A stretch of 31,691 bases of DNA from a virus (Duplodnaviria; Heunggongvirae; Uroviricota; Caudoviricetes): IMG/VR virus record IMGVR_UViG_2778261559_000026. One strand, 5' to 3'. Below are positions 30,901 to 31,691 of the stretch, piece by piece. The position numbers are program-made. Each line of letters opens with the position of its first letter. Position 1 is the stretch's first letter.

Positions 30901-31691
30901 TAACGTTTATAAATCACCACTCAAACCAGCTAAAGAAAATCCAAACGCAATGGAGGGTAAATCCAAACAGGATACTATTGGACGTGTTAACACTTATAAC
31001 ATCTGGGTAAGCAAAAAAGGTGACATGCGTCTTGAAGTTATTGAACCAAAATATGATTCTGAATATAAACACACTCAATTTGCATGTGACATGGTAGACG
31101 CAGAGTAAGAGGTGAAATGATGCAATTCAATAGCATGAAGATTACTCAAAAATGGTGGGATGCGATGAAAGCTAACCACCAGAACGATATTAATTAAGTA
31201 ACATTTTAGATATACAGCACCCAGCTAACAGATCACCTTTTATGGATTTCATTATAACCCCTTTGATCTGGAAACTATGTTAATTAGTTGATTTCTAAGC
31301 CTTGTCCTTGTGATGGGGCTTTTTATTGCAAAATTTTTAGTTATTTTGGGTTGACTACATTCGGGTTGCCAATTCGCCTGGCTAACTCTTGCTGAGTGAT
31401 TTCTGACTGTAAAAAAGCATTTAACAGCAATACTTTAGAGGCGACGCTCAAAGGTACTTCAATAAAGTGATCATGACTATTTAATGGCGAAGGTAACGGG
31501 ATAAGCTCGTTATCTTCAAAATAAAAATCAAATGCGGTCAGTAAAGCATCTTTTGCCGCTTCCATCGCTTCAGCGACAGTTTCGCCCTGCGTCAACGCTT
31601 CAGGGATATCCACAAAAGAAACCATATAACCGCCTTCCGGCGCGGGTGTAAGAGTGACGGGATAACGCATAATTTCGACTGTCCCTCGCAT

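What the first reader, a model, noticed from the sequence alone, without database searches (positions are those of the whole stretch)
31341..31670. Chimeric truncated HicB lacking the recognition part of its HTH domain
The host-derived reading frame ends after ...SEITQQELARRIG and continues into 8 element-encoded codons (NPNVVNPK) and a stop. The N-terminal HicA-neutralising domain is kept, but the C-terminal DNA-binding domain used for operon autoregulation is broken. Lysogens may therefore have a derepressed hicAB operon that is still neutralised.
Basis: partly seen in the sequence, partly recalled or inferred. Interest (0 to 1): 0.6.

Follow-up and report, generated by a model that had tools for sequence, protein, structure and literature searches.

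The report
Prophage-truncated HicB antitoxin gene
A prophage has inserted into the E. coli antitoxin gene hicB, leaving a 109-residue stump that keeps the toxin-binding half and loses the DNA-binding half; this is an ordinary by-product of phage integration, and in this strain both the phage and the partner toxin gene also look broken.

Summary
The minus-strand ORF 31341-31670 encodes HicB residues 1-101, identical to K-12 HicB (PDB 6HPB), then NPNVVNPK and TAA.

It is the attR junction of a 30,353-bp siphovirus-like prophage. The prophage was integrated by a large serine recombinase at a TT dinucleotide inside codon 102. The other 37 codons of hicB lie at 901-1014.

The break falls in the turn of the HTH. 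The Pfam HTH_3 match (residues 88-134) is lost and the N-terminal HicB domain (3-67) is kept. The same 109-aa junction ORF occurs in 22 of 5,426 complete E. coli genomes, and NCBI already lists it as a pseudogene or "HicB family antitoxin".

- HicB represses only promoter P2, whose transcript yields HicB alone. Derepression should therefore raise the stump, not HicA.
- The HTH also dimerises HicB.
- Neutralisation is plausible by precedent but untested.
- hicA is dead in many lysogens.

In this window's lineage the prophage is defective: a ~5-kb deletion truncates the recombinase and removes the lysis genes. The adjacent hicA, just outside the window, carries a private +1 frameshift. The locus is most likely a decaying toxin-antitoxin module. 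Interest is modest.

The parts
31341..31670 (-). Chimeric hicB' ORF: 109 codons plus TAA. HicB residues 1-101, then NPNVVNPK.
31368..31670 (-). Host-derived part, HicB codons 1-101. It covers the whole N-terminal partial RNase H-like HicA-binding domain plus HTH helices 1 and 2.
   Evidence: Pfam PF15919 at residues 3-67. Identical to 6HPB_B. AF2 secondary structure.
31344..31367 (-). Eight extra codons read from the P arm of attP. The first codon, AAC, shares AA with the TT core. The stop at 31341-31343 lies in the GTTATT motif that recurs in both attP arms.
31366..31367 (.). TT crossover dinucleotide at attR
   Evidence: Comparison of attB, attL and attR
1013..1014 (.). TT crossover dinucleotide at attL
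901..1014 (-). Orphan 3' remnant of hicB: codons 102-138 plus stop. It encodes the recognition helix, later helices and the dimerisation strand. An in-frame phage ATG would give a 41-aa ORF (901-1026, MILV + residues 102-138); it is probably not meaningful.
   Evidence: PGAP calls the equivalent stretch 'hicB, missing N-terminus'.
1015..31365 (.). Prophage, 30,353 bp between the two TT cores, about 41% GC, siphovirus-like. Genes include TerL, portal, major capsid protein, tape measure, tail proteins and a T4 gp37-like fibre.
2552..3949 (+). Truncated large serine recombinase gene: 425 native residues plus 40 unrelated residues. The full-length relative has 559 aa.
   Evidence: Pfam Resolvase + Recombinase + Zn_ribbon_recom. 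Comparison with 14EC029.
3828..3833 (.). Junction of a ~5-kb internal deletion. Relative to the 14EC029 prophage it removes the 3' end of the recombinase gene, the lysis cassette and the C-terminal ~675 codons of the tail-tip gene.
   Evidence: The same 465-aa product is on 6 draft contigs.
31297..31321 (+). Terminator-like hairpin with a T-run that ends the phage LprI-like operon before it would run antisense into hicB'.
30329..31108 (+). Phage gene for an LprI-family protein, the last phage gene before attR.
   Evidence: PGAP name.
1..822 (-). Host ydcR 5' part, the normal downstream neighbour of hicB.

Best explanation
The 109-aa ORF is the attR junction product left when a temperate siphovirus-like phage integrated into hicB.

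Shown:
- The phage's large serine recombinase exchanged strands at a TT dinucleotide inside codon 102, in the turn of the HicB helix-turn-helix.
- Reading continues for eight codons through the P arm of attP until a TAA. That TAA sits in a GTTATT motif repeated in both attP arms.
- The tail and its length are therefore set by attP architecture. They are not a designed feature.

Inferred consequences:
- The stump keeps the complete HicA-binding N-terminal domain.
- It has lost the recognition helix, the rest of the DNA-binding domain and the dimer interface. It should be a monomer that cannot bind the hicO operator.
- HicB represses only promoter P2, and P2 transcripts give HicB alone. The expected result is constitutive over-production of the stump.
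- The stump probably still masks HicA one-to-one, if it is stable.

In this window's lineage the change is locked in. The prophage has lost the recombinase C-terminus, the lysis genes and part of the tail tip. The adjacent hicA carries a private +1 frameshift. Here the module is most likely a decaying toxin-antitoxin remnant with little or no activity.

Confidence is about 0.95 for the structural part (integration junction, domain loss, defective prophage). It is about 0.5 for the functional part (P2 derepressed, HicA still neutralised). The overall figure reflects the functional part.
For: Junction anatomy:
- attB, attL and attR share only TT.
- The reconstructed attP has 20 of 30 dyad-symmetric positions around TT; attB has 8 of 30.
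- The recombinase has a Resolvase + Recombinase + Zn-ribbon architecture.

Recurrence:
- The same 109-aa ORF is present in 22 complete genomes of diverse serotypes. Element sizes range from 5.5 to 35 kb.
- A second attP-arm variant gives KPKCCKPQ* at the same length.

Domain loss:
- HTH_3 (residues 88-134) is lost and PF15919 is kept.
- AF2 helices end at residue 100.

Regulation and neutralisation, from the literature:
- P2 is the only HicB-repressed promoter and yields only HicB.
- The HTH dimerises HicB.
- The N-domain neutralises HicA independently of the DNA-binding domain.
- HicBs without a DNA-binding domain are the most common class (PMC10865869, PMC11594946).
- The S. meliloti HicB N-domain alone abolishes HicA toxicity (PMC6327479).

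Other evidence:
- The promoter region is intact in all 22 lysogens.
- 16 of 22 complete lysogens keep wild-type hicA, including strains where the prophage has decayed to 7 kb.
- The prophage here is defective.
- hicA has a +A frameshift in the two records that are 100% identical to the window, and in 0 of 5,426 complete genomes.
Against: - No expression, stability or neutralisation data exist for this stump.
- Two orphan HTH helices (residues 74-100) may make it a Lon substrate.
- hicA is inactivated in many lysogens. The old 22-bp deletion is in 6 of 22 complete and 10 of 18 draft loci, against 15% of all genomes. There are also two private lesions. This could mean that neutralisation is imperfect.
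- The enrichment is not significant in complete genomes (p = 0.10) and is not corrected for phylogeny.
- Whether the truncated recombinase is truly inactive is inferred, not shown.
Confidence: 0.55

Rival explanations
1. The insertion is effectively a hicB null or hypomorph. The stump is unstable or neutralises poorly, so HicA made from P1 is partly active. That would resemble a delta-ydcQ strain, with lowered envelope-stress responses and sigma-E independence. The cost would select for hicA-defective hosts or for later hicA lesions.
For: - hicA is dead in 6 of 22 complete lysogens and 13 of 18 draft lysogen loci. The 22-bp allele is in 15% of all complete genomes.
- Two private lesions are absent from all 5,426 complete genomes: +A in the window lineage, and a 106-bp hicA/hicB' deletion in L045.
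- A relative of the window lineage with only 3 mismatches in 2,863 bp still has intact hicA, so the +A arose after insertion.
- The delta-hicB phenotype is attributed to toxin activation (PMC11481867, PMC5408214).
Against: - 16 of 22 complete lysogens keep intact hicA, including strains with old prophage remnants.
- The enrichment gives p = 0.10 and is not phylogenetically controlled.
- hicA is also lost in 15% of genomes that have intact hicB, so toxin decay is common anyway.
- N-domain-only HicB neutralises HicA in S. meliloti (PMC6327479).
- P2 derepression should raise the level of the stump.
Confidence: 0.3
2. The target choice is adaptive. By cutting the DNA-binding domain off HicB, the phage locks the antitoxin 'on' and disarms a HicA-based stress or anti-phage response in its lysogen. 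Precise excision restores hicB, as in an active-lysogeny-type switch.
For: - Site-specific targeting of the same TT in many lineages.
- attL x attR recombination would regenerate wild-type codon 102.
- A role for HicA in phage defence has been proposed (PMC10865869).
- The logic of P2 makes over-production of the stump plausible (PMC10865869).
Against: - There is no evidence that chromosomal E. coli HicAB defends against phage.
- Large serine recombinases often target coding sequence without a regulatory purpose (own knowledge).
- The window's prophage cannot plausibly excise, and several relatives are decayed remnants.
- The eight-codon tail varies between attP variants and follows attP symmetry.
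- No defence or anti-defence genes were found near the ends.
Confidence: 0.1
3. The short HicB is a natural allele or an assembly artefact, not an insertion junction.
For: NCBI lists the exact 109-aa sequence as an ordinary 'HicB family antitoxin' on 43 contigs.
Against: - Both halves of hicB flank a 30.35-kb phage-gene block.
- The uninterrupted 138-aa gene is the norm.
- The junction recurs in 22 independently finished genomes.
Confidence: 0.01

Closest known systems
E. coli K-12 HicB (b1438/ydcQ; PDB 6HPB, 6HPC, 6U0I), a class 3 HTH-type HicB
   Same: Residues 1-101 are identical. It has the same upstream partner hicA and the same promoter region in lysogens.
   Different: It lacks residues 102-138: the recognition helix, later helices and the dimerising strand. 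It ends in eight phage-derived residues. The Pfam HTH_3 match is lost.
[quoted passage not shown]
   Same: It has the N-terminal partial RNase H-like domain without a working DNA-binding domain. It works like these proteins if it neutralises HicA.
   Different: Those are independently evolving small proteins. This one is a recent truncation, about 100% identical to an HTH-bearing HicB. Gerdes' own criterion excludes such cases. It also retains two orphan HTH helices.
Gene-interrupting prophages and elements moved by large serine recombinases: A118/phi10403S in Listeria comK, SPbeta in B. subtilis spsM, skin in sigK, XisF/fdxN (own knowledge; weak XisF similarity)
   Same: A three-domain serine recombinase, a dinucleotide crossover inside a coding sequence, and a split host gene that precise excision would restore.
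   Different: The target is a toxin-antitoxin antitoxin gene in E. coli. No evidence of regulated excision. The copy in this window has a truncated recombinase and no lysis genes.
delta-ydcQ (hicB) suppressor of rpoE lethality (Button 2007; Daimon 2015; cited in PMC2215328 and PMC11481867)
   Same: A natural disruption of the same gene. It shows that loss of hicB is tolerated and acts through HicA.
   Different: Those are null alleles. This one keeps the toxin-binding domain, so its phenotype may be milder or absent.

Membership tests
HicB antitoxin, HTH-type (class 3) | N-terminal partial RNase H-like HicB domain | tested here: met
   PF15919 at residues 3-67, E = 4.7e-8, above the gathering score. 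Residues 1-101 are identical to 6HPB_B.
HicB antitoxin, HTH-type (class 3) | C-terminal Xre-type HTH DNA-binding and dimerisation domain | tested here: not met
   HTH_3 matches residues 88-134 of intact HicB and gives no hit in the chimera. The ORF ends 8 codons after helix 2.
HicB antitoxin, HTH-type (class 3) | Encoded directly downstream of a functional hicA | tested here: inconclusive
   hicA lies outside the window. It is adjacent in all related loci. It is frameshifted (+A, 62 aa) in the two records that are 100% identical to the window, and intact in 16 of 22 complete lysogens.
HicB antitoxin, HTH-type (class 3) | Neutralises HicA and represses P2 at hicO | not testable with these tools
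   Needs co-expression, EMSA and reporter assays.
Class 1 HicB without a DNA-binding domain | Small HicB that evolves independently, not a near-identical truncation of a HicB with a DNA-binding domain | tested here: not met
   97-100% identical to 138-aa HicB over the shared part. This is Gerdes' exclusion criterion (PMC10865869).
Prophage integrated by a large serine recombinase | Recombinase with Resolvase catalytic domain, Recombinase domain and zinc-ribbon domain | tested here: met
   All three Pfam domains score above their cut-offs. An N-terminal YIRFSSMRQ motif is present, typical of the catalytic-serine region (sequence).
Prophage integrated by a large serine recombinase | attP and attB share only a central non-palindromic dinucleotide, and attP has imperfect dyad symmetry | tested here: met
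   TT is the only shared core. attP is symmetric at 20 of 30 positions and attB at 8 of 30.
Prophage integrated by a large serine recombinase | Full-length, active recombinase in this copy | tested here: not met
   425 of 559 native residues remain, and the gene is cut within the predicted coiled-coil region by a ~5-kb deletion. Activity itself is not testable here.
Active-lysogeny or regulatory-switch prophage | Regulated precise excision that restores the host gene | not testable with these tools
   Precise attL x attR recombination would restore codon 102. This copy lacks an intact recombinase, and no directionality factor was identified.

The most novel reading that the evidence does not exclude
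A family of E. coli/Shigella temperate phages uses a serine integrase to cut the DNA-binding and dimerisation domain off HicB. This would convert an autoregulated HicAB module into one that constitutively over-produces a DNA-blind antitoxin. The result would be to disarm HicA-dependent stress or anti-phage responses in lysogens, reversibly in phages with an intact integrase. Alternatively the effect could be the opposite: a leaky toxin that favours hosts lacking hicA.
Probability: 0.12. Interest if true: 0.6.

Novelty: new member of a known kind. Interest (0 to 1): 0.3.

Why it matters
If the stump still neutralises HicA while leaving P2 unrepressed, these lysogens are natural separation-of-function mutants of a well-studied toxin-antitoxin system. 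They could be used to test the two-promoter model and the role of HicB dimerisation.

If it does not neutralise, the phage imposes a hidden cost that shapes which hosts it can lysogenise. The frequent hicA lesions in lysogens hint at this.

Either way, hicB is a previously unreported attB for a serine-integrase phage in E. coli, as far as the searched literature shows. For this particular strain the practical message is that hicAB is probably non-functional. The 109-aa protein should be annotated as a disrupted gene, not as an antitoxin.

Tried and rejected
- **Whole-phage match.** No match in the INPHARED phage collection; only the tail-fibre gene matched T-even phages.
- **Published reports.** No report of a prophage in hicB/ydcQ was found.
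- **Primary papers.** Manav 2019, Turnbull & Gerdes 2017, Button 2007 and Daimon 2015 are not held. Their content is cited through reviews.
- **Compensatory 22-bp hicA deletion.** Rejected as the sole explanation. The allele is in 811 of 5,426 genomes, and the enrichment in complete lysogens gives p = 0.10.
- **Mu-like transposition.** Rejected. There is no target duplication beyond TT, and a serine recombinase is present.
- **Tyrosine integrase with a restoring 3' duplicate.** Rejected. The phage does not supply a replacement hicB 3' end.
- **Defence or anti-defence cargo near the ends.** No PADLOC or NCBIfam hits.
- **Promoter-like site at 31372-31343.** Chance level.
- **1-nt deletion variants of hicB at the crossover AAA (P0017, P0024, P0025).** Considered as excision scars. 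Set aside because these sequences carry many other errors, typical of noisy assemblies.
- **The window's deletion junction.** Found in no complete genome, but confirmed on 6 draft contigs.

Full report
**1. The observation**

The minus strand carries an ORF at 31341..31691 (116 aa from an upstream ATG). From the K-12 start at 31668-31670 it is 109 aa and ends ...SEITQQELARRIGNPNVVNPK, followed by TAA at 31341-31343. Intact HicB from a non-lysogenic E. coli (L002) is 138 aa and continues ...ARRIGKPKQEITRLF.... Residues 1-101 are identical to PDB 6HPB_B. The finding's coordinates and description are correct.

**2. What the window is**

- The left end is ydcR (1-822, minus strand), followed by the missing 3' part of hicB at 901-1014 (codons 102-138 plus stop).
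- Between the two hicB halves lie 30,353 bp of about 41% GC DNA. It encodes a gpA-type large terminase, portal, major capsid protein, tape measure, tail proteins and a long tail fibre.
- Near the left end is a gene with Resolvase, Recombinase and zinc-ribbon domains, the architecture of a large serine recombinase.
- attB (...cctgtttaggtTTgccaattcg...), attL and attR share only the TT at 1013-1014 and 31366-31367.
- The reconstructed attP has 20 of 30 dyad-symmetric positions around TT, against 8 of 30 for attB.
- This is the signature of serine-integrase integration (own knowledge of phiC31- and A118-type systems). There is no extended core and no target-site duplication.
- The eight extra codons are simply the P arm of attP read in the hicB frame. 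The TAA lies in a GTTATT motif that recurs at the same distance in both arms.
- Two genomes carry a diverged P arm that gives KPKCCKPQ* at the same length.

**3. Recurrence**

- The junction is present in 22 of 5,426 complete E. coli genomes. The hosts are diverse (O55:H7 DEC5A, O6:H16, ETEC, and animal and human isolates), and the elements range from about 5.5 kb remnants to about 35 kb.
- PGAP annotates both halves as hicB pseudogenes.
- The exact 109-aa sequence is already in NCBI and UniRef as "HicB family antitoxin" on 43 contigs, and the variant on 23.
- No paper describing a prophage in hicB/ydcQ was found.
- The phage as a whole is not in INPHARED.

**4. What is lost and what is kept**

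- Intact HicB matches PF15919 (residues 3-67) and HTH_3 (residues 88-134). The chimera matches only the first.
- By the HTH_3 register, TQQELARRIG (92-101) is helix 2 and KPKQEITRLFN is the recognition helix. The break is therefore exactly in the turn.
- An AF2 model of the chimera (mean pLDDT 72.5) shows strands 5-9 and 15-19 and helices 32-50, 74-89 and 93-100, followed by coil.
- In E. coli HicB the N-domain masks HicA independently of the DNA-binding domain. The HTH region dimerises HicB, through a strand that follows the HTH, into the A2B2 complex (PMC11594946, PMC10865869).
- Precedents for neutralisation without the DNA-binding domain: the S. meliloti N-domain alone abolishes HicA toxicity (PMC6327479); the Y. 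pestis HicA3-HicB3 complex was solved without the C-domain (PMC11594946); and HicBs lacking a DNA-binding domain are the most common class (PMC10865869).

**5. Regulation**

P1 is constitutive or Sxy-activated and makes both proteins. P2 is the only HicB-repressed promoter, and its transcript yields HicB but not HicA (PMC10865869, PMC11594946). A DNA-blind stump should therefore over-produce itself, which favours neutralisation. The 221-bp promoter region is intact, with no gaps and 98-100% identity, in all 22 lysogens. A phage-side terminator at 31297-31321 shields hicB' from antisense transcription.

**6. Is HicA really still neutralised?**

This cannot be decided here.

- hicB deletion is viable in K-12, and its phenotypes are attributed to HicA activation (PMC5408214, PMC2215328, PMC11481867). 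Survival of lysogens is therefore uninformative.
- hicA is wild-type in 16 of 22 complete lysogens, including strains with 7-kb remnants.
- The other 6 carry a 22-bp deletion allele. That allele exists in 811 of 5,426 genomes, and the enrichment gives p = 0.10.
- Among 18 further draft loci, 10 carry that allele, 2 carry a +A frameshift and 1 carries a 106-bp deletion that removes the hicA 3' end and the hicB' start.
- The +A frameshift and the 106-bp deletion occur in none of the 5,426 complete genomes.
- The pattern is suggestive of relaxed or negative selection on hicA after hicB truncation. It is uncontrolled for phylogeny and sampling.

**7. This particular copy**

- Compared with the 14EC029 prophage, the window lacks about 5 kb, with the junction at 3828-3833.
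- The recombinase keeps 425 of 559 residues and is cut in the predicted coiled-coil region.
- The endolysin-containing block is gone, and the tail-tip protein is cut to 599 of 1,258 aa.
- The same 465-aa product is found on 6 draft contigs, so the deletion is real.
- The window's right 10 kb is 100.00% identical to GCA_000250095.2 (AIGU01000032.1). Its last 2.86 kb is also 100% identical to a Logan assembly of SRR6413774.
- In both records hicA reads CGTAAAAGC in place of CGTAAAGC. The product is 62 aa, and the last nine residues are replaced.
- A relative with only 3 mismatches in 2,863 bp has intact hicA.
- In the window's lineage the prophage is therefore probably unable to excise or lyse, and both hicA and hicB are damaged.

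**8. Verdict**

The feature is an ordinary integration junction of a serine-integrase prophage at an attB site (hicB) for which no description was found. The resulting protein is a plausible but untested separation-of-function antitoxin. In this strain it is most likely part of a decaying module. It is a new member of a known kind, and its interest is modest.

Noticed in passing
window 3828-3833 (affects ORFs 2552-3949 + and 3785-5584 -): A ~5-kb deletion relative to the 14EC029 prophage. It fuses a truncated serine recombinase gene to a truncated tail-tip gene and removes the lysis cassette. The prophage is therefore defective.
   Followed up: yes
L026 9779-9967 (GCA_000250095.2 AIGU01000032.1); L043: hicA, just outside the window, has a +1 A insertion (AAA to AAAA). 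It gives a 62-aa product with an altered C-terminal helix. The allele is absent from all 5,426 complete E. coli genomes.
   Followed up: yes
hicA in L001, L003, L008, L019, L020, L022 and many draft loci: A 22-bp deletion allele of hicA, lying between short TGCG repeats, is present in 811 of 5,426 complete E. coli genomes (15%). The chromosomal HicA toxin is therefore commonly dead even where hicB is intact.
   Followed up: partly
L045 about 2820-2830 (GCA_036485155.1): Another lysogen has a private 106-bp deletion that removes the hicA 3' end and the hicB' start. No complete genome carries it.
   Followed up: partly
window 11924-15352 (-), nucleotide match at about 11100-13500: The 1,142-aa tail fibre of this siphovirus-like prophage is 79-87% identical at the DNA level to the distal long tail fibre (gp37) genes of T-even phages. 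The 14EC029 relative also carries a gp38-like adhesin. This suggests exchange of receptor-binding modules between virulent and temperate phages.
   Followed up: no
window 6050-6823 (-): A homing-endonuclease-like gene (PHROG 314; NUMOD3; weak group I intron endonuclease similarity) sits in an ~840-bp insertion that is absent from the 14EC029 prophage.
   Followed up: no
window 901-1026 (-): At attL an in-frame phage ATG creates a possible 41-aa ORF (MILV + HicB 102-138) that carries the orphan recognition helix and dimerisation strand. There is no evidence of expression.
   Followed up: no
window 29415-29969 (-) versus 21256-23163 (-): The only terminase small-subunit-like gene lies about 6 kb from the large-subunit gene. 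No clear repressor or replication genes were recognised in 23.2-29.4 kb.
   Followed up: no
L017, L018 (strains H2 and MEI003), attR: A diverged attP P arm (gttattggggtttacaacatttaggt) gives a different eight-residue tail (KPKCCKPQ) with the stop at the same position.
   Followed up: partly
proteins P0005, P0020, P0027, P0033, P0036: Other natural hicB disruptions in public assemblies: different insertions or frameshifts near residues 95-105. Loss of hicB is tolerated repeatedly.
   Followed up: no
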